The notes under the pieces: model-generated
Databases searched by the model: none
What the model was told of the DNA's origin: nothing
What the model saw: the letters and a program-made list of their open reading frames with translations, nothing else
Program-made: the position numbers and the translations under genes
Origin: Escherichia coli
GTDB taxonomy: Bacteria > Pseudomonadota > Gammaproteobacteria > Enterobacterales > Enterobacteriaceae
Length of the DNA: 64,000 nucleotides
Assembly: GCF_022846255.1 (NCBI RefSeq)
Contig: NZ_AP025682.1
Reading direction: 5' to 3' (one strand)
Shown here: positions 687 through 24,971 of the stretch, in pieces
Numbering within the stretch: position 1 is the first letter of the stretch
Layout of the letters: every line of letters begins with the position of its first letter

Positions 687-721
<35 letters not shown>

Positions 722-3839: not shown

Positions 3840-4205
3840 TTATTTCCCTTCAATGGCCTCTCTGATGCCGCTGATTTGCAGATTCAGAAAGGTCAGACTG
3901 CTTTGATAATCCATACTATTTTGTGAAAACCGCGCCTGTTCGCTGTTCAGTTCCACGGTGTTGCCATCTTCCGACGGCTGCATCGGCACGCGGTACTGGA
4001 CATCCACCGCCGCGTTATTTGCCCGTTGCATCTCCCTGGCAAAATCAATATCTTTAGCCTTGAAATTTGGCGTATCGACGTTCGCCAGATTCGCAGTCAG
4101 TAGCTCGGTCCTCTCAAGACGTAACTTCACTGCCTGCGGATGCACTCCCAATGCCTGTTGAAAACTGATCCCCATTTCTTGCGTCACTCCTGCTTCAATC
4201 CGCAT
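3840..4205 (-). CDS. lfgB: Flagellar basal-body rod protein FlgB (true start probably the internal ATG at 4175)
   Basis: ANLANVDTPNFKAKDIDF rod motif; the sigma-54 promoter at 4212-4227 leaves too little leader for the 4205 start; a GGAG RBS precedes the ATG at 4175. Confidence 0.8.
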   Translation of the reverse strand: MRIEAGVTQEMGISFQQALGVHPQAVKLRLERTELLTANLANVDTPNFKAKDIDFAREMQRANNAAVDVQYRVPMQPSEDGNTVELNSEQARFSQNSMDYQSSLTFLNLQISGIREAIEGK

Positions 4206-4211
4206 ACGCTA

Positions 4212-4227
4212 AGCAATCGCCGTGCCA
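4212..4227 (-). promoter_or_regulatory. Sigma-54 (RpoN) -24/-12 promoter for the lfgBCDEFG operon
   Basis: Reverse complement reads TGGCACggcgaTTGCT, a perfect TGGCAC-N5-TTGCW match; a sigma-54 activator (lafK) is encoded in the same locus. Confidence 0.6.
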
Positions 4228-5794: not shown

Positions 5795-5882
5795 CGACAA
5801 TTCCTTCCGCCATCGCGGAAACGGATTTTCCGCCTGATTCTCAATCCCTTGTTTTTGATTACAAAAATTCCCGGCACGCTTA

Positions 5883-6851
5883 TTGCACATTCCGCAAAGT
5901 AATAAAGACTGGAAGCCACCTATGAGTTTTATTGAATGTTACGAACCGGAATACGTGCGCAATTTTATGACGCAATATCCCGATTCGCCTTTGTACGTCC
6001 GCAAGGTCTGGAAGAATGAGATTCGCCAGAGCCTGGCATTGACCGATATTGAAAGTTGCAAAGCGGTGCTCAACGATGCCAGGGCCTTTGATTTACAGCT
6101 CACCTACCGCCCTGTGGAAGACAATGCCGCCGAGCTATCCGCGCGCGATGCGATAGTAAACCAGGCCATTTTGAGCACCCTTACGCTCCCCGATTTAACC
6201 CCGGAGCTTTCCCTGTATGCCGTCGGGATTTTGCTCTCCCGCGCCAGTAAAATGCCGGGCAGAGACGGAGATATTCTTGCCCGCTTGACGACGCTGCCAC
6301 AGGCGCTGGGGGATCATGCACAAAAAGGCACGCTACAGGCACAGTTCGCCCAACTCCCACCCGTGCCACAACTGGCGCGCCAACTGGTGACGCTGCTCGG
6401 GAGTTTTGCGTTTGACTGGTCGATTTTGCCGGAAAGCCCGCGCAAAGCCTCGCTACCGTTGCAGGTGACTTTGCTGACGTTGCATGACGCCAACAGCGAA
6501 GCTTTGTTGCAACAGCAGCTTAAGGTGCAGTGGCAAACCACCTGGCAACAGCATTTTGCCGCCGCGCCGTGGATGATGCGCAACTGGCTGATTTACCGAG
6601 TTTATCACGACGTGATTGGGCAGGCAGACGGAGCAGATTATTGCCCGCTGGTGTGTGATTTTTATCTCATCCGCACGTTAATCAGTTTATGGACGCTGGA
6701 TGGTTCTGCGCTGCGGCAGGAGGATATTTTCGCCCTCTTTGCCATGTTTGAACGCTGGCGGACCAGTGAAAATGCGCTGTTTATTCGCCAGCAAATTCAG
6801 TCGTTATGTGCCGCAGAGCCGCTGCTGTCAGCGTTTTCGCTGCTGACGTGA
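5883..6851 (+). CDS. Hypothetical protein in the Flag-2 variable region
   Basis: 322-aa ORF with no recognisable motif; located between lfgN and the glycosyltransferase gene. Confidence 0.5.
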   Translation: MHIPQSNKDWKPPMSFIECYEPEYVRNFMTQYPDSPLYVRKVWKNEIRQSLALTDIESCKAVLNDARAFDLQLTYRPVEDNAAELSARDAIVNQAILSTLTLPDLTPELSLYAVGILLSRASKMPGRDGDILARLTTLPQALGDHAQKGTLQAQFAQLPPVPQLARQLVTLLGSFAFDWSILPESPRKASLPLQVTLLTLHDANSEALLQQQLKVQWQTTWQQHFAAAPWMMRNWLIYRVYHDVIGQADGADYCPLVCDFYLIRTLISLWTLDGSALRQEDIFALFAMFERWRTSENALFIRQQIQSLCAAEPLLSAFSLLT

Positions 6852-7029: not shown

Positions 7030-9474
7030 ATGCCAACACCGACCATCATCAAAACACTCGCCACCCACCGCGAAAAACCGTTCGTCAGCGTCGTCACGCC
7101 AACCTGGAACCGCGGCGCATTCCTGCCGTACCTGCTTTATATGTACCGCTATCAGGACTACCCGGCAGACCGCCGCGAACTGGTCATCCTCGACGATTCC
7201 CCGCAAAGCCATCAACACATCATCGACCGCCTGACCAATGGCACGCCGGAGTCCTTCAACATCCGCTACATCCATCACCCGGAAAAACTGCCGCTGGGCA
7301 AAAAACGCAACATGCTCAACGAACTGGCGCGCGGCGAATACATCCTCTGCATGGACGATGACGACTACTACCCGGCAGATAAAATCTCTTACACCATCGC
7401 TATGATGCAAAAAAACCGGGCGCTCATCTCCGGTTCCGACCAGATCCCCATCTGGTACAGCCACATCAATCGCATCTTTCAAAGCCGCAGCTTCGGCCCG
7501 CATAACATCCTCAACGGCACCTTTTGCTATCACCGTAACTACCTGAAAAAGCACCGCTACGATGACGATTGCAATTTAGGCGAAGAGAAAAGTTTCACCG
7601 ACAATTTCAGCGCTAACCCGCTACAACTGCCCGGCGAGCGCACGATTTTGTGTATCTCGCACAGCCACAACACCTTTGATAAAGACTTTATCCTCGGGGC
7701 CAGCACGCCTGTAAACGCGGCGCTTACGGATATCGTCAGCGATCCGCTGCTACGCAACGCTTATCTGGGTCTGCATAACGCCACTCATTATCAGGCGATC
7801 CAGCATCAGGCGATCGATCAGATCGTTCTGCTGAATCTGGATAAACGCCCGGATCGCTTACAGCAGATCCGTGAAGAACTGACATTGCTGCATATTCCGC
7901 CTGAGAAGATCACCCGCCTTGCCGCCAGTGAAAATGAAAACGGTCAACGGGGCCGCCAGCAATCACACTTGCAGGCGCTGCATCTGGCGCAACAGCACGG
8001 CTGGCAAAACTATCTGCTGCTGGAAGATGACGCGGTTATTCTCAAACAGGAGAAACATATTCAGGTGCTGAACGCGCTGCTGGCGAGCCTGGCGAAAATT
8101 CCCTGGCAGGTGATGATCCTCGGCGGCGAAATTTCGCAGGGAACGATGCTAAAAAGTTTGCCTGGGCTGGTGCACGCGCGGGACTGCCGCAAAGTGTGCG
8201 CTTATCTGGTGAACAGCCGCTACTACCTGCAGCTGGCGCAGCAGATGAACAACGATGAGCATTCGCTGGAAGGCGGCTGGCAGCCGCTGCTGCGCACCGA
8301 CAAATGGCTGGCCTGTTACCCGAGCCTTTGTTATCAGCGACCGGGCTTTAGTGATATCGAGAAAAAAGCGACTGATAACATTAACCACTACTTCAATAAG
8401 TTACCCGTAGCCACCAAGCCATCTACATTACCTATCGCCGATACCATCGGCTTTTTTATGGAAACCTCATTCCACTACGCGCTCTACCGCCCAATCATCA
8501 CTGCCCTACAGGCGCAAGGACAAAGCTGCACGCTGGTGATCAACGACCGCGTGTTTAAACCGTTTCTGGATGAAATGCTGAATACGTTAAAAAGCATCGA
8601 CGATCCACAGCTCAAAGGAATGCGCTTATCGGAAATGCAGGCACACGGTCAGCGAGTAAAATGCCTGGTCAGCCCCTATCACACGCCTGCGCTCAGTGGC
8701 CTTTCCCCCCTGAACATTCGCGCCATGTACGGCTTAGCCAAAGAAACGTGGAACCACGCCGACTGGAACCGTTTTTATCAGCGCATTTTGTGTTACAGCC
8801 ACTACAGTCAGCGGGCGCTGGCACATTTCGGCAGCGCAAAAGTGGTCGGCAACCCACGCTTCGACGCCTGGCATAACGGCACGTTCGACCGCGCTCTGCC
8901 GGAAAATATCCAACCCGATTCCCGTAAACCTACGGTGCTCTATGCCCCCACGTTTGGCGCATTAAGCTCCCTGCTCCACTGGGCAGAAAAATTGGGGCGT
9001 TTGAGCGGCGATGTGAACCTGATTTGCAAACTGCACCACGGCACCTGCTCGCGCCCGGAAGAAGCCGCATCGCTGGCACTGGCGCGCAGGCATTTAAAAC
9101 AGCGCACCGACTCTGCCCGCCACACGCTGGCGCTACTGGCAAAGGCCGATTACGTGCTCACCGATAACAGCGGGTTTATTTTCGATGCTATCCACGTTGA
9201 TAAACGGGTGATCCTGCTCGACTTTCCGGGCATGACGGAACTGCTCGACGGTGAGAAAAGCTACTCCACGGCAGAGAGCGCCGACCAGCGAATCCGCGAA
9301 ATATTGCCGGTGGCTCATGATGTTGCGGAACTGCGTTACTTATTGTCAGAGGTATTTGACTGGGGGGCGGTTCAGACGCGGCTTACGGAAATTCGCCATC
9401 ACTATTGCGATGCGTTTATGGATGGCAAGGCGGGAGAACGAGCGGCGTTGGTGATTGTGGAGGCGTTGGGGTAA
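7030..9474 (+). CDS. Multidomain glycosyltransferase: N-terminal GT2-like, central GT25-like, C-terminal CDP-glycerol glycerophosphotransferase (TagB/TagF)-like
   Basis: N-terminus VSVVTPTWNR...LDDS and ILCMDDDDYY (GT-A/GT2 signatures); C-terminus VLYAPTF and VLTDNSGFIFDAIHVDKRVILL resemble TagF-family motifs; ORF from 6958, likely ATG at 7030. Confidence 0.6.
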   Translation: MPTPTIIKTLATHREKPFVSVVTPTWNRGAFLPYLLYMYRYQDYPADRRELVILDDSPQSHQHIIDRLTNGTPESFNIRYIHHPEKLPLGKKRNMLNELARGEYILCMDDDDYYPADKISYTIAMMQKNRALISGSDQIPIWYSHINRIFQSRSFGPHNILNGTFCYHRNYLKKHRYDDDCNLGEEKSFTDNFSANPLQLPGERTILCISHSHNTFDKDFILGASTPVNAALTDIVSDPLLRNAYLGLHNATHYQAIQHQAIDQIVLLNLDKRPDRLQQIREELTLLHIPPEKITRLAASENENGQRGRQQSHLQALHLAQQHGWQNYLLLEDDAVILKQEKHIQVLNALLASLAKIPWQVMILGGEISQGTMLKSLPGLVHARDCRKVCAYLVNSRYYLQLAQQMNNDEHSLEGGWQPLLRTDKWLACYPSLCYQRPGFSDIEKKATDNINHYFNKLPVATKPSTLPIADTIGFFMETSFHYALYRPIITALQAQGQSCTLVINDRVFKPFLDEMLNTLKSIDDPQLKGMRLSEMQAHGQRVKCLVSPYHTPALSGLSPLNIRAMYGLAKETWNHADWNRFYQRILCYSHYSQRALAHFGSAKVVGNPRFDAWHNGTFDRALPENIQPDSRKPTVLYAPTFGALSSLLHWAEKLGRLSGDVNLICKLHHGTCSRPEEAASLALARRHLKQRTDSARHTLALLAKADYVLTDNSGFIFDAIHVDKRVILLDFPGMTELLDGEKSYSTAESADQRIREILPVAHDVAELRYLLSEVFDWGAVQTRLTEIRHHYCDAFMDGKAGERAALVIVEALG

Positions 9475-9484
9475 ACCGCGCAAG

Positions 9485-9561
9485 TGCCTGATGCGCTTCG
9501 CTTATCAGGCCTACGGATCGATCACGTCTTGTAGGCAGATAAGGCGTTTACGCCGCATCCG
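9485..9561. repeat. REP elements (two inverted units)
   Basis: tgcctgatgcgcttcgcttatcaggcctac and gtaggcagataaggcgtttacgccgcatccgg match the REP consensus. Confidence 0.7.
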
Positions 9562-9583
9562 GAAAGAAACAAACATCTCTGTG

Positions 9584-9988
9584 TTAGTACTTTATATAAT
9601 TCCCCCTAATCACCTCAATGATCCCCGTCGTCGATACCGACGGCGTACGGGGAAAATAGACCACCTCACAGATACACGAGAAATCGTCAAACTTCCCTGC
9701 CCAGTCATCACCCATCACCAAAATATCCGCACTGTACCCCCACAGATATTCCGCTTTCTGCGCCAGCGACTCCTCCAGAAATACGCCATCCACGCACGCC
9801 AGCCCGGCGATGATCGACATGCGGTCATCCTGATGGTAAACCGGTGCTCTGCCCTTTTTGGCGATATTTAAGGCGTCGGACGATACGCCGACCAGCAGCC
9901 GTTCGCCCAGCGTGCGGGCGCGTTGTAAAAGGCGCAGATGACCGACATGAAACACATCGAAGGTGCCGAAGGTGATGACCGTTTTCAT
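9584..9988 (-). CDS. Glycerol-3-phosphate cytidylyltransferase (TagD-like)
   Basis: MKTVITFGTFDVFHVGHLRLL contains the HxGH nucleotidyltransferase motif, ~135 aa like TagD; start overlaps the lfiJ stop (ORF track start 10021 is upstream of the likely ATG at 9988). Confidence 0.75.
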   Translation of the reverse strand: MKTVITFGTFDVFHVGHLRLLQRARTLGERLLVGVSSDALNIAKKGRAPVYHQDDRMSIIAGLACVDGVFLEESLAQKAEYLWGYSADILVMGDDWAGKFDDFSCICEVVYFPRTPSVSTTGIIEVIRGNYIKY

Positions 9989-13485: not shown

Positions 13486-15109
13486 TGCTGGTGATCCATT
13501 GTCTGAGAACTTCGGCTACGCGATCGGTGTCGCTCATGGCCAGTTTTTGCAGGAACTCGAGTTTCACTTCGAGGCCAGAACTTTGTGACGGCAGGCTGTC
13601 ATCGCCGGGTAGCGACGGCAGGTCGACGTTTTTGCGCTCTTCTTCCGGCATGGCAATCCACGGTTCGCTGACGGCTTCCGGTTCTGGTGTGATAACCGGC
13701 GCACGTACCGCCGTCAGCCGTTTCATCAACGGACGCACCACGAAAAACAGCAGCAACAGCGCCAGCAGGCCGCAGCCAATCAGCCGCACCCAGGCCAGTA
13801 CGCTGTCATCTTTCCACAGTGGAATAACCGGTCCGACAGGCACCGCCTGCGGTACAAAGTTGAGTAACGATAAGGAGAGATTGTCACCACGCTGGGCGTC
13901 GATCCCGGCGGCATTGTTCAGCAGTGCGGTCAGTTGCGCAGTCTGCTCCGGCTTCCAGTTTTTCAGCACCGGGGCGTTTTGATTGAGCACCACCGCCACG
14001 TTGAGGCGTTTCACCGCAAAACCAGGATGCTGAATATGCTGGACGCTGCGGTCGTAAGAGTAATCGCGCTTGCTTTCGCTGTGTTTGGATAACGCTTCCG
14101 GCGAGCGATTTTCTTCCGTACCGTTGGTCATCTGATTCGCCGCAACCGGCGGGCGGTTGCTGAGCGAACCGGGCACGCCCATCGCCACCTGATTGGTGTC
14201 GCTGTCCAGCACGCTCTCTTCGCGGTTGATTTTCGGCGAGTCGCCGTAGTGTTCCTGGGTTTCGTCAATGGTGCTGAGATCGAGATCCGGCATCACGCTG
14301 ACGCGGTAATTCCCGCTGCCGACCAGCGAATCCAGCACGTTCGCCACGCTGGCGCGGGTTTTGTCCTGGATGTCTTTAAGGATCTGATCGCGTTTACGCG
14401 TTGCGGCAGAAACCGCCTCGCCCGCGCCGATGTCGTCGGTCAGCAGATTTCCCGCCTGATCGACGACGCTGACTTTGCTGGCGTGCAGCCCCGGAATACT
14501 ACCGGAAACCAGATGCACGATGGCGTTCACCTGGTCCATATTCAGCTTCGCGCCGTAGTGCAGGCGCACCACCACCGAGGCGCTGTTTTGCGGCTCATCG
14601 CTGACCACAAACGAACTTTCTTCGTTAAGCGCCAGATGCACCCGCGCACTCTCCACCGCGTCCAGCGACATAATGCTCTGCGCCAGCTCCCCTTCGAGGC
14701 TGCGTTTGTAGCGCACGTTCTGCACGAACTGGCTGCTGCCGAGCACTTCGTCTTTGTCCATCAGCTCGTAGCCGCTGGGCAATATCGCCTGCACGCCTTT
14801 GGCGGCAAGGGTCATGCGCGTTTTCGACAGTTCATCTTCCGGCACCAGTATCTGCCCGCTTTGCGGGTCGATGCGGTAGCTGAGCTTTTCGCCATCCAGC
14901 ACGGTGACAATCTGCGACACGGGCAGATTTTCCTGGCGTCCGTAGAGCGAAACGTAGCCGCGATTACCGGTCCACAGCACGCTGACGATAATCGCCGTCA
15001 CCGCCACGGCAAGCCCCACTCCCGCCATCAACGCCCAGCGTTTGTTATCTACGAGACGCAGTCGAAACGCCGGAAACGCCTGGGTTAACTTCTTTATTTG
15101 TGCATTCAT
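13463..15109 (-). CDS. lfiF: Flagellar MS-ring protein FliF
   Basis: 548 aa; N-terminal TM helix and overall FliF/YscJ layout. Confidence 0.85.
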   Translation of the reverse strand: MNAQIKKLTQAFPAFRLRLVDNKRWALMAGVGLAVAVTAIIVSVLWTGNRGYVSLYGRQENLPVSQIVTVLDGEKLSYRIDPQSGQILVPEDELSKTRMTLAAKGVQAILPSGYELMDKDEVLGSSQFVQNVRYKRSLEGELAQSIMSLDAVESARVHLALNEESSFVVSDEPQNSASVVVRLHYGAKLNMDQVNAIVHLVSGSIPGLHASKVSVVDQAGNLLTDDIGAGEAVSAATRKRDQILKDIQDKTRASVANVLDSLVGSGNYRVSVMPDLDLSTIDETQEHYGDSPKINREESVLDSDTNQVAMGVPGSLSNRPPVAANQMTNGTEENRSPEALSKHSESKRDYSYDRSVQHIQHPGFAVKRLNVAVVLNQNAPVLKNWKPEQTAQLTALLNNAAGIDAQRGDNLSLSLLNFVPQAVPVGPVIPLWKDDSVLAWVRLIGCGLLALLLLFFVVRPLMKRLTAVRAPVITPEPEAVSEPWIAMPEEERKNVDLPSLPGDDSLPSQSSGLEVKLEFLQKLAMSDTDRVAEVLRQWITSNERIDNK

Positions 15110-15113
15110 AGGG

Positions 15114-15455
15114 TTATATCGACATACTCATCAGGTCGTTAAACCCGGTGGCGATTTTATTGCGCACCTGCACCAGCGCGGAGAAAGAGAGCGACGCCTG
15201 CTGGCTGGCGATCATCGCACCTGCTAAATCATCACTTTTGCCCGTGTCGATAGCTGTTTGCTGCTGCTCCGCCACCTGCTGGAACTGGTCAACGTGACCG
15301 AGCGCGCCGGACATAATGCGGTTAAACGAAACGTCCGGGTCGGTGGAACTGAAGGTCATGGCGGGCAGCACCGGTGCCTGGGCGTTGGCCTGCATCCGCT
15401 GCACGTCCTGCATGATTTGCGCCTGCATGGTGCTGTTGATTGTGGTAATGCTCAT
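15114..15455 (-). CDS. lfiE: Flagellar hook-basal body protein FliE
   Basis: 113 aa; position upstream of fliF; C-terminal FNDLMSMSI-type ending. Confidence 0.75.
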   Translation of the reverse strand: MSITTINSTMQAQIMQDVQRMQANAQAPVLPAMTFSSTDPDVSFNRIMSGALGHVDQFQQVAEQQQTAIDTGKSDDLAGAMIASQQASLSFSALVQVRNKIATGFNDLMSMSI

Positions 15456-15469
15456 TTTTAACTTCCGGG

Positions 15470-16456
15470 TCAGGAGAAAACTTCGATACCGTGCTTGCGC
15501 ATGGAGGCCAGTCGATAGCGCAGTGCGCGCGGGGTAATGCCTAACAGGTCGGCAATTTTGCTGCGGTTGCCCTGATATTTACGCATCAGGTCGGCGATAT
15601 ATTGATACTGCGCACTTCGTCCGGCCTGGCCTAAATCGCTGGTTTCCGCAACAGATACGGAGGGCTGAACAGGCCATTGCAGTTCACTGTGATCGGCAAC
15701 GTCTATTTCCGGCAGGCCTAAGGCATCCGGGAAAATCACGCCGTCGCGGTTTAAAATCATTCCCCGCTGAATGGCGTTCTCCAGCTGACGCACGTTGCCG
15801 GGCCAGCGGTAATTGAGCAGCGCCCGGCGGGTAGATTCTGAAAGGGTGATATTTTTCACCAGCACCGTGGAGTATTTTTTAATAAATGACTCTGCCAATG
15901 GAATAATATCGTTCAGACGTTCACGCAGCGGCGGCATGGTAATAGGAATTACCGCCAGACGATAATAGAGATCTTCACGAAAACGCCCGGCGGCAACTTC
16001 CTGTTCAAGGTTTTTATTGGTACAGGCAATCAGGCGAAAATTGAGTTTAATTTGTCGGTTGCTGCCTAATCGCTCAACCTGTTGTTCCTGCAACACGCGT
16101 AATATTTTGGCCTGAAGCGCCAGCGGCATATCGCCAATTTCATCGAGTAATAAGGTGCCGTTATTCGCCAGTTCCATTTTTCCTGGCACGCTGGCAATTG
16201 CGCCGGTAAATGCACCTTTGTCGTAGCCAAATAAGGTAGATTCCAGCATATTTTCCGGGATCGCCGCGCAGTTCACGCCGACATAGGGTGCGCTTTCATT
16301 TTCACCAAAGGCTACGGTGTGAATATATTTTGCCACGCACTCTTTGCCCGCGCCGGTTTCGCCCTGAATGAGCACCGGCACGTTAAATGCGGCGACACGC
16401 TTTGCCAGAGTAAAAGCGTTAATGCTGGAAGCGGCAGTTGCAATAAGTTCAGACAT
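15470..16456 (-). CDS. lafK: Sigma-54-dependent transcriptional activator (LafK-like), AAA+ plus HTH only, no receiver domain
   Basis: Walker A GETGAGKE, GAFTGA sigma-54 contact motif, C-terminal HTH; only 328 aa and begins directly at the AAA+ domain. Confidence 0.8.
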   Translation of the reverse strand: MSELIATAASSINAFTLAKRVAAFNVPVLIQGETGAGKECVAKYIHTVAFGENESAPYVGVNCAAIPENMLESTLFGYDKGAFTGAIASVPGKMELANNGTLLLDEIGDMPLALQAKILRVLQEQQVERLGSNRQIKLNFRLIACTNKNLEQEVAAGRFREDLYYRLAVIPITMPPLRERLNDIIPLAESFIKKYSTVLVKNITLSESTRRALLNYRWPGNVRQLENAIQRGMILNRDGVIFPDALGLPEIDVADHSELQWPVQPSVSVAETSDLGQAGRSAQYQYIADLMRKYQGNRSKIADLLGITPRALRYRLASMRKHGIEVFS

Positions 16457-16584
16457 AGGGTGAACGATATAAGTAGCGACATTAATCAGGATGTTCTGAA
16501 GCGTATCACCGGTGGGATTAACAAGTTCGAATTAAACGATAATAAAAATATTATTTGTTTATAAACAATGAGTTATAACCGCAG

Positions 16585-16663
16585 GCCGGATAAAGCGTTT
16601 ACGCCGCATCCGGCAATCGTGCACCGGTGCCTGATGCGACGCTGCGCGTCTTATCAGGCCTAC
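16585..16663. repeat. REP elements (two units)
   Basis: gccggataaagcgtttacgccgcatccggc and gtgcctgatgcgacgctgcgcgtcttatcaggcctac. Confidence 0.7.
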
Positions 16664-16842
16664 AGTTCGTGCAATGTTTTATGACGATGCCCTATATCTC
16701 GCCCGTTAATAATTTAATTATTTTTTCACCCTATTAATAATTTGCCCCTTTCACTCCCCCTCTATTTAATACCTCACCTTGTGTCACTGCCGGATTTGCG
16801 TGCACAAAATCGCCCATACCATTACAGCAGAGAAAGTAAGCC

Positions 16843-17694
16843 ATGCTGAAGTACAGTAAAACGCCAGGCATCTTTAAATTAGAAGGTAATCGGCTCGGAC
16901 GCCCCTACCATCGCCTGCCGACCCTGTTTACGGGGAATTTTGACGTGATTGATTCGCATCTGGGCAGCTACTTTCTCAAAAAGCATCGCAGCAATATCAC
17001 CTTAAAAAAGATTGGCTGCGAAATGGATATTATTAATAAAAACGCCGAACTGATGGTTTCCCAGGTCGGGCATCTGGCGTTTGATATTGATCGCTCCTTA
17101 TTGTTAATGCTGCTGGGCAATTTTTATGGTCTGGAGTCCTCTCTCGAAGAGGCGAAAGACCATAATGGCCTGCCGACCAAAACCGAAACGCGGTTAAAAA
17201 ACCGCCTCGCGCTGGATATCTGCACGCTGATTTTTAATCTGCAAACCTCCGGTATTGCGCTGAAATTAAAGATGGACAGCAGCACGGTAATTACCCACTG
17301 GGCGTATCAATTAACCTTTACCCTTGCGGGCGATGAAGAGAGCAGCTTTCGTATTTTGCTCGACGACGCCCACACCGATTTTATTTTAAATCTGATCCGC
17401 CACAGCGAGCACAGTAAACCGCAGCAGGTGGCGAAATCGGTCAATAAACCGGCCCTGATTAAAGAAATCATCCGCTCCCTGCCGTTGACTCTGAACGTCA
17501 AAATCGCCGAGCTATCGATGAATGTCGCCGATCTGGCGCAGATAAAAGCCGGGGATATTTTACCCATTTCGCTGGGAGAAACGTTCCCGGTGGCGATTGG
17601 GCAATCTGAATTATTTAGCGCCCTGATTGTGGAAGACAAAGACAAACTGTTTTTGTCGGAGCTGGCGGGCAAGAATGAGAATAGCCATGAGTAA
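16843..17694 (+). CDS. lfiM: Flagellar motor switch protein FliM-like
   Basis: 283 aa; C-terminal SpoA-like segment GDILPISLGETFPVAIG; precedes fliN. Confidence 0.7.
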   Translation: MLKYSKTPGIFKLEGNRLGRPYHRLPTLFTGNFDVIDSHLGSYFLKKHRSNITLKKIGCEMDIINKNAELMVSQVGHLAFDIDRSLLLMLLGNFYGLESSLEEAKDHNGLPTKTETRLKNRLALDICTLIFNLQTSGIALKLKMDSSTVITHWAYQLTFTLAGDEESSFRILLDDAHTDFILNLIRHSEHSKPQQVAKSVNKPALIKEIIRSLPLTLNVKIAELSMNVADLAQIKAGDILPISLGETFPVAIGQSELFSALIVEDKDKLFLSELAGKNENSHE

Positions 17695-20995: not shown

Positions 20996-23072
20996 ATCGT
21001 TCCTCGCGCCGCTGCGCGGCGGCAATCTCGGCGTGCCGTTGGTGATCCTGTGTATTCTGGCGATGGTTATTCTGCCGCTGCCGCCTGCGCTGCTGGATAT
21101 TCTGTTCACCTTCAACATTGTGCTGGCGGTGATGGTGCTGCTGGTGGCCGTGTCGGCGAAAAGGCCGCTGGAATTCAGCCTGTTCCCGACCATTTTGCTG
21201 ATCACCACCTTAATGCGTCTGACGCTTAACGTTGCTTCTACGCGCGTGGTGCTGCTACACGGGCATCTCGGCGCGGGCGCGGCGGGTAAGGTGATTGAGT
21301 CGTTTGGTCAGGTGGTGATTGGCGGCAACTTTGTCGTCGGTTTCGTGGTATTTATCATCCTGATGATCATCAACTTTATCGTCGTAACCAAGGGGGCCGA
21401 GCGTATTTCCGAGGTTTCTGCCCGCTTTACCCTGGACGCGATGCCCGGCAAACAGATGGCGATTGACGCCGATCTTAACGCCGGGTTGATCAACCAGACG
21501 CAGGCGCAAACCCGGCGTAAAGATGTCGCCAGCGAGGCCGATTTCTACGGCGCAATGGACGGGGCATCAAAATTTGTGCGCGGGGACGCCATCGCCGGGA
21601 TGATGATTCTGGCGATCAACCTGATCGGCGGCGTCTGTATCGGCATCTTCAAATACAACCTGAGCGCCGACGCCGCCTTCCAGCAATATGTGCTGATGAC
21701 TATCGGCGATGGGCTGGTGGCGCAAATCCCTTCCCTGCTGCTCTCCACCGCGGCGGCGATTATCGTCACCCGCGTCAGCGATAACGGTGATATCGCCCAT
21801 GACGTGCGTAATCAGTTGCTGGCAAGCCCGTCGGTTCTCTACACCGCCACTGGAATTATGTTCGTGCTGGCGGTGGTGCCGGGAATGCCGCATTTCCCGT
21901 TCCTGATGTTCAGCGCCCTGCTTGGTTTTACCGGCTGGCGGATGAGCAAGCGCCCGCAAGCGGCGGAGGCGGAAGAGAAAAGCCTCGAAACGCTAACCCG
22001 TACGATGACAGAAACCAGCGAGCAACAGGTCAGTTGGGAAACTATTCCGCTGATCGAACCTATCAGTTTAAGCCTCGGCTACAAACTGGTGGCGCTGGTG
22101 GATAAAGCGCAGGGCAACCCGCTCACCCAGCGTATTCGCGGCGTACGTCAGGTGATTTCCGACGGCAACGGCGTGCTGCTGCCGGAGATCCGTATTCGGG
22201 AAAACTTCCGTCTCAAGCCCAGCCAGTACGCCATTTTCATCAACGGCATTAAGGCTGATGAAGCGGATATTCCGGCGGATAAACTGATGGCCCTGCCCTC
22301 CAGCGAAACCTACGGCGAGATTGACGGCGTACTGGGGAATGACCCGGCATATGGGATGCCGGTCACCTGGATTCAGCCTGCGCAGAAAGCGAAGGCGCTG
22401 AATATGGGGTATCAGGTGATCGACAGCGCCAGCGTGATTGCCACCCATGTGAACAAGATTGTGCGCAGCTATATTCCTGACCTCTTTAACTATGACGATA
22501 TTACGCAGTTGCATAACCGCCTGTCGTCGATGGCACCGCGACTGGCGGAAGATTTGAGCGCGGCACTCAATTACAGCCAATTGCTGAAAGTGTACCGGGC
22601 GCTGCTGACCGAAGGCGTTTCCCTGCGCGATATCGTCACCATCGCCACCGTGCTGGTCGCCAGTAGTGCGGTGACCAAAGATCATATTCTGCTGGCGGCA
22701 GATGTGCGCCTGGCGCTGCGGCGCAGCATTACCCATCCGTTCGTTCGCAAGCAGGAGCTGACGGTGTATACGCTGAATAATGAGCTGGAAAATCTGCTGA
22801 CCAACGTGGTGAATCAGGCGCAACAGGCCGGCAAAGTGATGCTCGACAGCGTGCCAGTGGACCCGAATATGCTCAACCAGTTCCAGAGTACGATGCCGCA
22901 GGTAAAAGAGCAGATGAAAGCGGCGGGGAAAGATCCGGTGCTGCTGGTGCCTCCGCAGCTGCGCCCTTTGCTGGCGCGCTATGCAAGGTTGTTTGCGCCG
23001 GGGCTGCATGTGCTGTCGTATAACGAAGTGCCGGATGAGTTGGAGTTGAAGATAATGGGGGCGTTGAGTTGA
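20979..23072 (+). CDS. lfhA: Flagellar export gate protein FlhA
   Basis: 697 aa; FHxxK-type N-terminal TM region and large cytoplasmic domain. Confidence 0.9.
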   Translation: MAKTTKSFLAPLRGGNLGVPLVILCILAMVILPLPPALLDILFTFNIVLAVMVLLVAVSAKRPLEFSLFPTILLITTLMRLTLNVASTRVVLLHGHLGAGAAGKVIESFGQVVIGGNFVVGFVVFIILMIINFIVVTKGAERISEVSARFTLDAMPGKQMAIDADLNAGLINQTQAQTRRKDVASEADFYGAMDGASKFVRGDAIAGMMILAINLIGGVCIGIFKYNLSADAAFQQYVLMTIGDGLVAQIPSLLLSTAAAIIVTRVSDNGDIAHDVRNQLLASPSVLYTATGIMFVLAVVPGMPHFPFLMFSALLGFTGWRMSKRPQAAEAEEKSLETLTRTMTETSEQQVSWETIPLIEPISLSLGYKLVALVDKAQGNPLTQRIRGVRQVISDGNGVLLPEIRIRENFRLKPSQYAIFINGIKADEADIPADKLMALPSSETYGEIDGVLGNDPAYGMPVTWIQPAQKAKALNMGYQVIDSASVIATHVNKIVRSYIPDLFNYDDITQLHNRLSSMAPRLAEDLSAALNYSQLLKVYRALLTEGVSLRDIVTIATVLVASSAVTKDHILLAADVRLALRRSITHPFVRKQELTVYTLNNELENLLTNVVNQAQQAGKVMLDSVPVDPNMLNQFQSTMPQVKEQMKAAGKDPVLLVPPQLRPLLARYARLFAPGLHVLSYNEVPDELELKIMGALS

Positions 23073-23084
23073 TGGGGGAGACTA

Positions 23085-23140
23085 TATAAGGTCTCGGACT
23101 GTCCCCTCGCCCCTTTGGGGCGAGGGAGAAAAACGTGTAC
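23085..23140. repeat. Palindromic repeat (CCCCTCGCCCC...GGGGCGAGGG)
   Basis: gtcccctcgcccctttggggcgagggag perfect hairpin between convergent lfhA and yafL; same family as 6871-6980; could also act as a terminator. Confidence 0.6.
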
Positions 23141-23169
23141 GACTTTAACTTTTTCGCAGTATTGCCGTC

Positions 23170-23928
23170 CTACAAAATCGTCTCTTCCGTCAAAATCCGC
23201 CGCGCGCCTAAAAAATGATCCTGCCAGAAAGGTTCAGCTAACCGGCTTATCCGAATGGTTTCGCCGGTACGTGGTGACTCGATAAACTGACCGTCTCCCA
23301 GATACACCCCCATATGATCGGCTATCTCGCGGCTGTGAATATGGAAAAACAGCAAATCTCCCCGGCGCAGGTCGTTATTCGCCACAATCGTTGCCCGACG
23401 GTAGTGGTACATCTCATTGGCCGTGCGCGGGAGCTTAGCCTCAAGGATCTTGTTGTAGGCATAAAAAACCAACCCGCTACAGTCGAAGCCTTTATCAGGC
23501 CGCGTGCCCCCCCAGATATAAGGCTTACCTAGCTGCTGCTCCAGGCGGTGAATCGCCACTTCGGTGATGTTATGTAGATGGTCGCTGCTTAAGAAATGAT
23601 TATTCTCCACCAACGCCTGCCAGCGTCTGTCACTCGCCTTGAGCGGCGCAGGAAACCATTCTGGATGCTGTTTTATCTGCTCCCGATTATGCTGGCGCAG
23701 CGCCCTTCTGCTTTTGGCATTGCCTTCCACAATATAGCTGGCCTGCTTTTTCAGATGGGTTTGGTACTGTTTTAATAAACGCGCACGGTTTTGCATCCGC
23801 TGGCGGGCGGCGTAGCTAAAAGAGATATGTGATGTGGTGGCGCTGGCGAGTAAAGGGAGCAAAACGCATAACGAAAACACGCCTGGATGCAGAAATCTGC
23901 CGTGCAAGAACGAAGACATGAAGGACAT
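23170..23928 (-). CDS. yafL: NlpC/P60-family lipoprotein peptidase YafL
   Basis: DCSGLVFYAYN catalytic Cys motif and later His; signal peptide. Confidence 0.8.
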   Translation of the reverse strand: MSFMSSFLHGRFLHPGVFSLCVLLPLLASATTSHISFSYAARQRMQNRARLLKQYQTHLKKQASYIVEGNAKSRRALRQHNREQIKQHPEWFPAPLKASDRRWQALVENNHFLSSDHLHNITEVAIHRLEQQLGKPYIWGGTRPDKGFDCSGLVFYAYNKILEAKLPRTANEMYHYRRATIVANNDLRRGDLLFFHIHSREIADHMGVYLGDGQFIESPRTGETIRISRLAEPFWQDHFLGARRILTEETIL

Positions 23929-24230
23929 AAACCAGCTGAATGAAGGTGAGAATTTTAAAAGACCGGAGGAGTAAACGGGATTATTAATTGCTTATTTGCA
24001 TATTACTATTGCGGTTTCATAATCTTAGGAAATAAGAAATAAATCTACAATCCATGCGCTTTTCGGACTCTTGAAAACTGCCCCTGTGCTAAATTTGTAA
24101 ACCCTGCGCCGACAGGCTTGCGTAAAACTCTTTTGGTGATAATGTGAGCCTTCCAAATCCAGACTATTCCGATTTGGGATTCATTTTGCCGTCCTGGCGT
24201 GTGTAACCGTTTTATCAAGGAATAAGCAGT

Positions 24231-24971
24231 ATGCGTAAAATCGCATTAATTCTTGCGATGTTGTTGATCCCGTGCGTTTCGTTTGCCGGTTTGCTGGGCA
24301 GCAGTAGCTCGACCACGCCAGTGAGCAAAGAGTATAAGCAGCAGTTGATGGGATCCCCTGTCTACATCCAGATCTTCAAGGAAGAACATACGCTCGATCT
24401 CTACGTCAAAATGGGCGAGCAATATCAACTGCTCGACAGCTATAAAATCTGTAAATATTCCGGCGGCTTAGGGCCAAAACAGCGTCAGGGCGATTTCAAA
24501 AGCCCGGAAGGGTTTTATAGCGTCCAGCGTAATCAGTTAAAACCAGACAGCCGTTACTACAAAGCGATTAATATTGGATTCCCAAACGCCTATGACCGTG
24601 CGCATGGTTATGAAGGGAAATACCTGATGATTCACGGCGATTGTGTTTCCATCGGCTGCTACGCGATGACCAATCAGGGTATTGATGAGATCTTCCAGTT
24701 CGTTACTGGTGCGCTGGTGTTTGGTCAGCCGAGCGTGCAAGTGAGTATTTATCCGTTCCGCATGACCGACGCCAATATGAAGCGCCATAAATATTCCAAC
24801 TTTAAGGACTTCTGGGAGCAACTGAAGCCGGGCTACGACTACTTTGAGCAAACCCGTAAGCCACCGACCGTTTCTGTGGTCAATGGCCGTTACGTGGTCA
24901 GCAAGCCGTTAAGCCACGAAGTTGTGCAGCCACAACTGGCATCAAACTACACGCTCCCCGAGGCAAAATAA
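24231..24971 (+). CDS. yafK: L,D-transpeptidase-like protein YafK
   Basis: YkuD-like [12 protein letters not shown] motif; signal peptide. Confidence 0.8.

What the first reader, a model, noticed from the sequence alone, without database searches (positions are those of the whole stretch)
15470..16663. Sigma-54 activator lacks any N-terminal regulatory domain and abuts REP elements
The LafK-like protein starts directly at the AAA+ domain (328 aa), a PspF/HrpS-like architecture. The in-frame upstream extension is only 25 codons with no alternative start before a stop, and REP elements lie ~130 bp upstream. Either this regulator family is naturally receiver-less, or an N-terminal domain was lost, which would make flagellar gene activation signal-independent or dependent on a partner protein.
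Basis: partly seen in the sequence, partly recalled or inferred. Interest (0 to 1): 0.45.

Follow-up and report, generated by a model that had tools for sequence, protein, structure and literature searches.

The report
Receiver-less LafK flagellar activator, ancestrally shortened
The regulator of E. coli's second (Flag-2) flagellar system is an intact gene under purifying selection that lacks the N-terminal domain its Vibrio, Shewanella and Pseudomonas counterparts carry; the domain was lost once, long ago, in the enterobacterial lineage, and the nearby REP repeats had no part in it.

Summary
lafK (15470..16456, minus strand) encodes 328 aa that begin 3 to 5 residues before the sigma-54 AAA+ core. 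A stop lies 26 codons upstream with no alternative start. A REP pair lies 129 bp upstream.

It is not a recent truncation:
- The same 987-bp gene is annotated in divergent E. coli lineages.
- Orthologues at 60-98% identity are 324-348 aa; the named ones come from about a dozen enterobacterial genera.
- dN/dS is about 0.04-0.12.
- No trace of a lost domain remains upstream.

The family is not receiver-less everywhere, though. LafK in syntenic lateral-flagella loci of Vibrio (443-444 aa), Photobacterium, Shewanella and Pseudomonas/Stutzerimonas (about 445-510 aa) has a 113-150 aa N-terminal degenerate receiver that lacks the phospho-acceptor Asp. A bootstrapped NJ tree nests the short enterobacterial clade among these long forms, which points to a single ancestral loss.

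The REP pair matches Rfam naRNA4. It is seen only in the Escherichia loci examined and is rearranged in one of the four E. coli copies compared. It is absent from the Citrobacter and Hafnia loci examined, whose LafK is already short, so it is incidental.

Likely mechanism (inferred): a PspF-like, constitutively assembly-competent activator controlled through its own expression or an unknown partner. It would drive sigma-54 promoters such as the perfect consensus upstream of lfgB. The gene is known; interest is modest.

The parts
15470..16456 (-). lafK coding sequence, 328 aa: sigma-54-dependent activator (bEBP) of the Flag-2 lateral-type flagellar locus, with no N-terminal regulatory domain
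   Evidence: ORF. Pfam domains. The same 987-bp CDS is annotated in E. coli genomes. dN/dS is 0.04-0.12.
15941..16441 (-). AAA+ sigma-54 interaction domain (residues 6-172). It includes Walker A GETGAGKE (16340-16363) and the GAFTGA sigma-54 contact loop (16199-16216).
   Evidence: Pfam PF00158, 216.8 bits. Both motifs were read from the sequence and are largely invariant across 23 orthologues: every residue except Ala36 in Walker A, and all of GAFTGA.
15719..15925 (-). AAA+ lid domain (residues 178-246)
   Evidence: Pfam PF25601, 70.4 bits.
15506..15607 (-). C-terminal Fis-type helix-turn-helix (residues 284-317), the presumed enhancer-binding domain
   Evidence: Pfam PF02954, 35.6 bits. The stretch LGITPRALRYRLASMR is invariant in orthologues.
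16457..16534 (-). 25 in-frame sense codons upstream of the ATG, closed by a TAA stop (16532-16534). There is no alternative start and no obvious Shine-Dalgarno sequence before the ATG.
16584..16660 (.). REP pair (BIME): two oppositely oriented REP hairpins at 16585-16614 and 16629-16659. An incidental repeat seen only in the Escherichia loci examined, sitting in the divergent lafK/lfiM intergenic region.
   Evidence: Inverted repeats. Rfam RF02564 naRNA4, 79 bits, full length. RNA fold -52.6 kcal/mol, z = -5.6. Dispersed across E. coli genomes. Different arrangement in strain CFSAN061770. Absent from the other genera examined.
15114..15455 (-). lfiE (FliE homologue), 14 bp downstream of lafK; next gene of the lafK-lfiEFGHIJ operon
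   Evidence: ORF. Annotation in E. coli genomes. Same gene order in Hafnia, Citrobacter, P. fragi and Vibrio.
16843..17694 (+). lfiM (FliM-like switch protein), divergently transcribed; first gene of lfiMNPQR-lfhBA
   Evidence: Divergent arrangement conserved.
4212..4227 (-). Candidate LafK/sigma-54 target promoter: perfect -24/-12 consensus TGGCACGGCGATTGCT immediately upstream of lfgB
   Evidence: Same site and position in strain JNE120442. flgB_L carries an RpoN site in V. parahaemolyticus (PMC9817140).
5872..5887 (+). Second sigma-54-like promoter, CGGCACGCTTATTGCA, 36 nt upstream of the ATG of a FliB-like lysine methylase gene (variable region 1)

Best explanation
This is lafK, the sigma-54-dependent activator of the Flag-2 (lateral-type) flagellar locus, in its normal enterobacterial form: AAA+ ATPase plus Fis-type HTH, with no N-terminal domain.

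Origin. LafK of Vibrio, Photobacterium, Shewanella and Pseudomonas has an N-terminal receiver-fold domain. That domain most resembles the FleR receiver but has lost the phospho-acceptor aspartate, so it is a pseudo-receiver. The enterobacterial lineage deleted this domain completely, once, before the sampled families diverged. The gene has since been kept under strong purifying selection.

How it most likely works (inferred, not shown). With no inhibitory or gating domain, the protein self-assembles into an active AAA+ ring, as PspF does. It binds enhancers through its HTH, contacts sigma-54 through the GAFTGA loop, and opens sigma-54 promoters of the locus: lfgB, the fliB-like VR1 gene, and lafB/fliD. 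Control would therefore lie in how much LafK is made, or in an unidentified trans-acting partner, rather than in phosphorylation.

The REP pair upstream is a later insertion, seen only in the Escherichia loci examined, between the lafK-proximal and lfiM-proximal promoter regions.
For: Identity and intactness: Pfam and NCBIfam hits. Walker A (all but Ala36), Walker B DE and GAFTGA are invariant in 23 orthologues. dN/dS is 0.07-0.12 within E. coli and about 0.04-0.05 against Citrobacter.

Not a local truncation: an identical 987-bp CDS is annotated in E. coli lineages that are 94-98% identical. Orthologues from several enterobacterial families are 324-348 aa. Synteny lfiM<- ->lafK-lfiEFGHI holds in Hafnia and Citrobacter. 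Their 594-641 bp AT-rich intergenic regions contain no ORF or receiver remnant.

Long relatives: V. parahaemolyticus/harveyi LafK is 443-444 aa in the context motY_L-lafK-fliE_L. Thaumasiovibrio LafK is 445 aa. Photobacterium, Vibrio and Shewanella forms are 431-465 aa. P. fragi (468 aa) has the exact E. coli synteny, and its Pseudomonas/Stutzerimonas relatives are about 445-509 aa.

N-terminal domain is a receiver fold: Pfam Response_reg scores 45.6 bits in P0290 and is sub-threshold in the others. A profile of 22 N-termini hits PDB receiver domains, best being FleR 7w9h at E 1.8e-11. Asp54 is replaced by Ser/Ala, the acidic pair is lost, and Lys104 is replaced by Arg/Gln/Ala.

Polarity of the change: in an NJ tree on 319 columns, Enterobacterales are monophyletic in 100/100 replicates, their sister group is all long-form in 90/100, and the LafK clade is recovered in 87/100.

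Target promoters: a perfect sigma-54 consensus lies upstream of lfgB here and in another strain, and a one-mismatch site lies upstream of fliD_L. This agrees with the V. parahaemolyticus data (PMC9817140).

Literature: LafK is already grouped with PspF and HrpR/S as lacking a signal domain (PMC3162934).
Against: No experiment shows that the enterobacterial LafK is active or constitutive.

In some bEBPs (NtrC type) the receiver promotes assembly, so a receiver-less form could be weak without a partner.

The tree is neighbour-joining on a limited sample. P. fragi is the sole sister in only 50/100 replicates. Aeromonas, Yersinia proper and Chromobacterium were not sampled.

No sigma-70 or sigma-54 promoter for lafK could be identified, and no enhancer motif rose above chance.

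E. coli strain 042 Flag-2 is reported as non-functional because of a frameshift (PMC6993521), so function in Escherichia is unproven, although every flagellar ORF inspected in this window is intact.
Confidence: 0.72

Rival explanations
1. Recent truncation or pseudogene. A deletion in this strain or species, perhaps mediated by the adjacent REP elements, removed the 5' part of lafK and left a decaying or deregulated fragment.
For: REP elements lie 129 bp upstream. Vibrio and Pseudomonas orthologues are about 115-150 aa longer.
Against: The short form, with a conserved start (M[SF]ELIA), occurs in divergent E. coli lineages and in Citrobacter. Other enterobacterial genera have only 3-19 residues before the core. 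REPs are absent from the Citrobacter and Hafnia loci, which are already short. dN/dS is 0.04-0.12. No vestige of the domain remains upstream.
Confidence: 0.03
2. Partner-dependent activator. Like HrpS with HrpR/HrpV, or PspF with PspA, the receiver-less LafK is held in check or co-activated by another protein, and that protein carries the signal. One possibility is a product of the Flag-2 locus such as the winged-helix protein LafZ, though LafZ may instead act on lafK transcription.
For: The architecture is the same as PspF and HrpR/S (PMC3162934). Flag-2 cluster 3 encodes a winged-helix regulator at the LafZ position. LafK and LafZ are described as Flag-2-specific regulators (PMC6993521; PMC7526173). 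In V. parahaemolyticus the degenerate EAL protein LafV acts together with LafK (PMC9303241).
Against: No PspA-, HrpV- or second-bEBP-like gene was seen next to lafK. No interaction data exist. This rival is compatible with, rather than exclusive of, the best explanation.
Confidence: 0.2
3. The short form is ancestral, and the N-terminal domain was gained in the Vibrio, Shewanella and Pseudomonas lineages.
For: Short bEBPs (336-350 aa) also sit directly upstream of fliE in a Steroidobacteraceae genome, a Pseudomonadales MAG and another metagenome contig. Deep branches of the NJ tree are poorly resolved.
Against: The N-terminal domains of the three long lineages are homologous to one another and to the FleR/NtrC-type receivers of the nearest bEBP relatives. 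The short enterobacterial clade nests among long forms in 90/100 bootstraps. Independent gains of the same degenerate domain are less parsimonious than one loss.
Confidence: 0.05

Closest known systems
LafK of Vibrio parahaemolyticus (lateral-flagella sigma-54 activator)
   Same: Orthologous position as first regulator gene before fliE_L, divergent from the fliM_L operon. AAA+ plus HTH_8. The two nearest Vibrionaceae representatives in the library search are about 48-49% identical to the window protein. Groups in the same clade in 87/100 replicates. Sigma-54 sites at flgB_L and lafB in both.
   Different: The Vibrio protein is 443-444 aa, with a roughly 125-aa N-terminal pseudo-receiver, and follows motY_L. 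The window protein has 3 residues before the AAA+ core and no motY_L.
PspF (E. coli phage-shock activator)
   Same: Same two-domain architecture without an N-terminal regulatory domain. LafK 4-234 aligns to PspF 8-238. Both are listed as 'type Ic' EBPs (PMC3162934).
   Different: Only about 185 bits against 255 for FlrC. PspF is controlled in trans by PspA (established knowledge), and no PspA-like gene is in the Flag-2 locus. The regulon is different.
HrpR/HrpS (Pseudomonas syringae T3SS activators)
   Same: Receiver-less bEBPs that control a type III secretion-related apparatus (PMC3162934).
   Different: They act as a pair of tandem paralogues regulated by HrpV/HrpG (established knowledge). 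Here there is a single lafK.
FlrC / FleR (polar-flagellum two-component sigma-54 activators)
   Same: Best PDB sequence match is the FlrC AAA+ domain (4qhs, 255 bits). The FleR receiver is the best PDB match for the N-terminal domain of long LafKs. The gene sits immediately upstream of fliE in both. JGI labels many LafK-like proteins 'FlrC'.
   Different: FlrC and FleR have a canonical phosphorylatable receiver and a cognate kinase, FlrB or FleS (established knowledge). Flag-2 has neither.
REP/BIME elements; Rfam RF02564 naRNA4 (REP325-derived RNA)
   Same: Full-length match at 79 bits. Two inverted REP hairpins. Dispersed in thousands of E. coli genomes.
   Different: This is a single REP pair, not the multi-unit REP325 array. 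Nothing shows it is expressed as naRNA. It sits between divergent genes.

Membership tests
Bacterial enhancer-binding protein (sigma-54 activator) | AAA+ sigma-54 interaction domain with Walker A and B motifs | tested here: met
   PF00158 at 216.8 bits. GETGAGKE and LLLDEIG are present; apart from Ala36 they are invariant across orthologues.
Bacterial enhancer-binding protein (sigma-54 activator) | GAFTGA loop that contacts sigma-54 | tested here: met
   GAFTGA at residues 81-86 (16199-16216), invariant in 23 orthologues.
Bacterial enhancer-binding protein (sigma-54 activator) | DNA-binding HTH for enhancer sites | tested here: met
   PF02954 HTH_8 at residues 284-317, 35.6 bits.
Bacterial enhancer-binding protein (sigma-54 activator) | Sigma-54 (-24/-12) promoters in the regulon | tested here: met
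   Perfect TGGCAC-N5-TTGCT upstream of lfgB here and in strain JNE120442; one-mismatch sites upstream of the fliB-like gene and of fliD_L. Dependence on LafK was not tested.
Bacterial enhancer-binding protein (sigma-54 activator) | ATP-dependent open-complex formation | not testable with these tools
   Needs biochemistry.
LafK orthologous group (lateral / Flag-2 flagella) | First gene of the lafK-fliEFGHIJ_L operon, divergent from fliMNPQR-flhBA_L | tested here: met
   Window, E. coli annotation, Hafnia, Citrobacter, P. fragi and Vibrio.
LafK orthologous group (lateral / Flag-2 flagella) | Groups phylogenetically with the characterised Vibrio LafK | tested here: met
   The clade of Enterobacterales, P. 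fragi, Vibrio and Shewanella is recovered in 87/100 NJ bootstraps. Neighbour-joining only.
LafK orthologous group (lateral / Flag-2 flagella) | N-terminal pseudo-receiver domain, as in Vibrio LafK | tested here: not met
   Three residues precede the AAA+ core. This defines the enterobacterial variant.
Two-component response regulator (NtrC/FlrC class) | Receiver domain with a phospho-acceptor Asp, and a cognate kinase | tested here: not met
   No Response_reg hit. No kinase gene was identified among the annotated and inspected Flag-2 genes.
PspF-type ('type Ic') receiver-less bEBP architecture | AAA+ and HTH only, no N-terminal sensory domain | tested here: met
   classification in PMC3162934.
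PspF-type ('type Ic') receiver-less bEBP architecture | Control by a trans-acting inhibitor (PspA-like) | not tested
   No obvious candidate lies next to lafK. The locus was not searched systematically for PspA- or HrpV-like proteins.
REP / BIME | Imperfect GC-rich palindromes of about 30-35 nt in inverted pairs, dispersed in the genome | tested here: met

The most novel reading that the evidence does not exclude
Enterobacterial LafK may be the end point of a stepwise degeneration: a phosphorylatable FleR/FlrC-type receiver, then a non-phosphorylatable pseudo-receiver (Vibrio, Shewanella, Pseudomonas LafK), then no domain at all. The result would be an always-on ATPase. All signal input to Flag-2 would then have moved to the level of lafK expression, for example through the Flag-2 winged-helix regulator LafZ, the SD-less start codon, or the REP-containing upstream region.
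Probability: 0.35. Interest if true: 0.45.

Novelty: already known. Interest (0 to 1): 0.3.

Why it matters
Flag-2 is carried by about a quarter of E. coli genomes: 1276 of 5426 complete genomes hold this segment, and the literature reports 24%. Its function and regulation in Enterobacterales remain largely unknown.

Knowing that its only sigma-54 activator has no sensory domain, and that this is a fixed, selected state rather than damage, tells experimenters where to look for control: lafK transcription or translation, or a partner protein, and not phosphorylation.

It also corrects a simplification in the literature. Vibrio LafK is not domain-less; it carries a pseudo-receiver. The complete loss was seen here only in the enterobacterial clade among LafK orthologues.

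Tried and rejected
- Papers not held. Ren et al. 2005 (the Flag-2 description) and Kim & McCarter 2004 could not be read. I therefore cannot say whether the shorter E. coli LafK was already remarked on there. None of the five held papers that contain both 'lafK' and 'Flag-2' was seen to discuss its architecture (one of them was not opened).
- Apparent long close relatives. P0057, P0070 and P0078 (462-521 aa, 68-71% identical) are assembly chimeras joined at the conserved FREDLYYRL motif; two carry E. coli NtrC and TyrR N-termini. P0009 and P0011 are frameshift fusions with LfiE and LfiG. All were rejected.
- P0150 (368 aa). It looked like a short Vibrio-type LafK, but it starts inside the last helix of the receiver and comes from an assembly with fragmented flhA and fliF. 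Rejected as evidence.
- Sigma-70 promoter and terminator scan of 16400-16900 found nothing.
- Sigma-54 scan of the lafK-lfiM intergenic region gave only a weak site, TGGGCGATTTTGTGCA at 16816..16801, minus strand. It is not claimed. This fits the report that fliM_L is not LafK-dependent in Vibrio (PMC3930126).
- Search for a shared enhancer motif upstream of the two strong sigma-54 sites gave one shared 9-mer, TTCCGCCTG, which is about what chance predicts.
- tblastn of receiver domains against the upstream regions of E. coli, Citrobacter and Hafnia gave only noise.
- The representative-library search was dominated by multi-AAA proteins and needed context look-ups to interpret.

Full report
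**What is in the window**

The finding covers a minus-strand ORF, 15470..16456, of 328 aa with an ATG start. Pfam places the sigma-54 interaction (AAA+) domain at residues 6-172 (E 1.9e-64), an AAA+ lid at 178-246 and a Fis-type HTH at 284-317. NCBIfam matches only the central and C-terminal parts of NifA, FlbD, NorR, NtrC and similar models, and no equivalog cut-off is reached.

Translating further upstream gives 25 sense codons and then TAA, with no ATG, GTG or TTG among them. Against solved structures, LafK 4-234 aligns with PspF 8-238. The best hit is the V. cholerae FlrC AAA+ domain.

The neighbours identify the Flag-2 locus:
- lfiE-F-G-H-I-J lie downstream on the same strand.
- lfiM-N-P-Q-R and lfhB-A lie divergently.
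- lfgN, M, A and B onwards lie to the left, together with a variable region holding a FliB-like methylase and a glycosyltransferase.
- yafL- and yafK-like genes lie beyond lfhA.

The observation as written is therefore correct.

**The REP elements**

Two GC-rich hairpins lie at 16585-16614 and 16629-16659. They match Rfam RF02564 (naRNA4, a REP-derived RNA) over the whole model at 79 bits, and together they fold into a very stable structure. In a BLAST of 15100-16900 against 5426 complete E. coli genomes, 1276 genomes hold at least 80% of the query; thousands more match only this roughly 85-bp stretch.

The flanking intergenic sequence is conserved between E. coli lineages. In strain CFSAN061770, however, the REP pair is arranged differently at the same site. 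The corresponding intergenic regions of Citrobacter (594 bp), Hafnia (641 bp) and Pseudomonas fragi contain no REP-like palindromes. Since Citrobacter and Hafnia already have the short LafK, the REP pair is a later passenger that did not cause the short architecture.

**Is the short protein a local truncation? No.**

The same 987-bp CDS is annotated in E. coli genomes whose locus is 94-98% identical to the window. A search of 5.8 billion proteins returns orthologues from 98% down to 60% identity, all 324-348 aa apart from fragments and artefacts. They come from Citrobacter, Leminorella, Enterobacter, Pseudescherichia, Scandinavium, Atlantibacter, Siccibacter, Budvicia, Pantoea, Pragia, Hafnia and Regiella.

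In an alignment of 23 of them, the catalytic motifs and the HTH are largely invariant, and only 0-17 residues precede the position of the E. coli start. Hafnia and Citrobacter have the same gene order. Their upstream regions are AT-rich, with no ORFs and no similarity to receiver domains. dN/dS is 0.07-0.12 within E. coli and about 0.04-0.05 against Citrobacter. The few long 'relatives' in the hit list are assembly chimeras or frameshift fusions.

**Is the whole LafK family receiver-less? No.**

Context look-ups of more distant relatives showed that LafK in syntenic lateral-flagella loci elsewhere is long:
- The V. parahaemolyticus/V. harveyi/V. alginolyticus cluster is 443-444 aa, in the order fliM_L operon <- -> motY_L-lafK-fliE_L-F-G-H-I.
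- Thaumasiovibrio is 445 aa.
- Photobacterium is 445-455 aa and Shewanella 431-439 aa.
- Pseudomonas fragi is 468 aa with exactly the E. coli arrangement, lfiM <- -> lafK-fliE.
- Its Pseudomonas and Stutzerimonas relatives are about 445-509 aa.

The extra 113-150 residues are a receiver-fold domain. Pfam Response_reg scores 45.6 bits in a Photobacterium protein and 13-27 bits in the Vibrio, Thaumasiovibrio and P. fragi proteins scanned, with no hit in the two Shewanella proteins. A profile built from 22 such N-termini finds PDB receiver domains, the best being FleR (7w9h, E 1.8e-11).

Aligned with the NtrC receiver, the long LafKs have Ser or Ala in place of the phospho-acceptor Asp54. They have also lost the acidic pair, Thr82 and Lys104. 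It is thus a pseudo-receiver. This may explain why a 2011 survey lists LafK with PspF and HrpR/S as lacking a signal-recognition domain (PMC3162934).

**Direction of change**

I built a neighbour-joining tree on 319 columns of the AAA+-to-HTH region of 42 proteins:
- The enterobacterial short forms are monophyletic in 100/100 bootstraps.
- Their sister group consists only of long forms in 90/100. It is P. fragi alone in 50, and P. fragi plus Vibrio/Shewanella in most of the rest.
- The clade of Enterobacterales, P. fragi and Vibrio/Shewanella is recovered in 87/100.

The N-terminal domains of the long lineages are homologous to one another and to FleR/NtrC-type receivers. The parsimonious reading is therefore a single complete deletion of the pseudo-receiver in the ancestor of the enterobacterial Flag-2 locus. 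The E. coli start (MSELIA...) falls exactly where the linker ends in the long forms (...NIVAES...).

This is a neighbour-joining result on a modest sample. Aeromonas, Yersinia proper and Chromobacterium were not sampled.

**How it probably works**

Shown:
- The protein has every sequence feature of an active bEBP.
- It is under purifying selection.
- A perfect sigma-54 promoter, TGGCACGGCGATTGCT, lies immediately upstream of lfgB at 4227..4212. The site is present, with one spacer difference, in another strain.
- One-mismatch sites precede the fliB-like VR1 gene (5872-5887) and, in strain JNE120442, fliD_L. This parallels the RpoN sites reported for flgB_L and lafB in V. parahaemolyticus (PMC9817140).

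Inferred:
- Without any N-terminal domain, LafK should assemble and hydrolyse ATP constitutively, like PspF. From memory and not checked here: the isolated FlrC AAA+ domain is reported to form heptamers on its own.
- Regulation would then act on lafK expression or through a partner.

No convincing promoter for lafK, or sigma-54 site for lfiM, was found. The latter agrees with the report that fliM_L is not LafK-dependent in Vibrio (PMC3930126). Enterobacterial lafK start codons lack an obvious Shine-Dalgarno sequence, unlike the Vibrio ones. Flag-2 cluster 3, which lies outside this window, encodes a winged-helix regulator at the LafZ position. That regulator is a candidate for upstream control, but this is speculation.

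**Comparison with known systems, and novelty**

The gene is the known lafK of Flag-2 (Ren et al. 2005, as cited in PMC6993521). It fulfils the bEBP criteria and the positional and phylogenetic criteria for LafK. It fails the 'pseudo-receiver' feature of the characterised Vibrio protein. It shares its architecture, but not close sequence similarity, with PspF and HrpR/S.

The receiver-less state of 'LafK' is already in the literature in general terms. Two points were seen in none of the accessible papers that were opened: that Vibrio LafK has a degenerate receiver, and that the enterobacterial clade alone among the LafK orthologues examined deleted it completely. The original Flag-2 paper could not be read.

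I therefore rate the feature as already known and of modest interest. A specialist would not be surprised. The result does, however, direct experiments on Flag-2 regulation away from phosphorylation and towards lafK expression or partners.

Noticed in passing
window 4212-4227 (-) and 5872-5887 (+): There are strong sigma-54 promoter matches. A perfect consensus lies directly upstream of lfgB, which implies the real lfgB start is Met11 of the listed ORF. A one-mismatch site lies 36 nt upstream of the ATG of a FliB-like lysine methylase, followed by an 838-aa glycosyltransferase. The variable-region cargo genes therefore appear wired into the sigma-54 regulon.
   Followed up: partly
L005 (E. coli CFSAN061770) versus window 16575-16680: The REP pair between lafK and lfiM is differently arranged in this strain: the Z-type REP comes first and the Y-type second. 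The flanks are conserved. The BIME at this site is therefore polymorphic within E. coli.
   Followed up: partly
window 16457-16475; L003 and L004 upstream of position 4001: Enterobacterial lafK start codons have no recognisable Shine-Dalgarno sequence (E. coli ...cgttcaccctATG). Vibrio and Thaumasiovibrio lafK have GAAGG or GGGAGG. This may be a by-product of the new start created when the N-terminal domain was lost.
   Followed up: no
L007 (Pseudomonadales MAG), L006 (Steroidobacteraceae), L008: Other short bEBPs (336-350 aa, no receiver) sit directly upstream of fliE in polar-type clusters. In L007 the order is FleQ, then a 251-aa HisKA/HATPase kinase, then the receiver-less bEBP, then fliE. 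That is a FleS-like kinase whose expected partner has no receiver domain.
   Followed up: no
proteins P0057, P0070, P0078 (metagenome contigs of 2.6-5.2 kb): Chimeric predicted proteins carry a foreign N-terminal part (E. coli NtrC in P0070, TyrR in P0078, another response regulator in P0057) fused to the LafK C-terminus at the conserved FREDLYYRL motif. These are assembly artefacts that mimic a 'LafK with receiver domain'.
   Followed up: yes
lafK in the window versus E. coli R11 (L002): Synonymous divergence between lafK alleles annotated as E. coli is high (dS about 0.28). The best nucleotide match in 5426 complete E. coli genomes is only 98%. Flag-2 alleles look old or exchanged between lineages.
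   Followed up: no
window 687-700 (+) and 9550-9563 (-): Further REP-like matches lie inside the Flag-2 locus. One falls within the unannotated 138-aa ORF 9455-9871 at the edge of variable region 1, which may therefore be non-coding.
   Followed up: no
window 23072-24231: Beyond lfhA lie an NlpC/P60 gene (23170-23928, minus strand) and yafK/ldtF (24231-24971), separated by only about 300 bp. From memory of the K-12 map, dinJ-yafQ and the REP-associated transposase gene rayT lie in this neighbourhood; they appear to be absent here.
   Followed up: no
window 16801-16816 (-): A weak sigma-54-like site, TGGGCGATTTTGTGCA, points towards lafK. If used, it would place the REP pair in a roughly 330-nt lafK leader. 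The GG and GC dinucleotides are kept in strain R11. This is speculative.
   Followed up: no
L014 (E. coli JNE120442), record 295835-298549: In this strain, genes for a type II restriction endonuclease and a cytosine methyltransferase lie next to flgA at the variable-region-1 end of cluster 2, where this window carries the fliB-like methylase and glycosyltransferase genes. The full extent of that strain's variable region was not examined.
   Followed up: no
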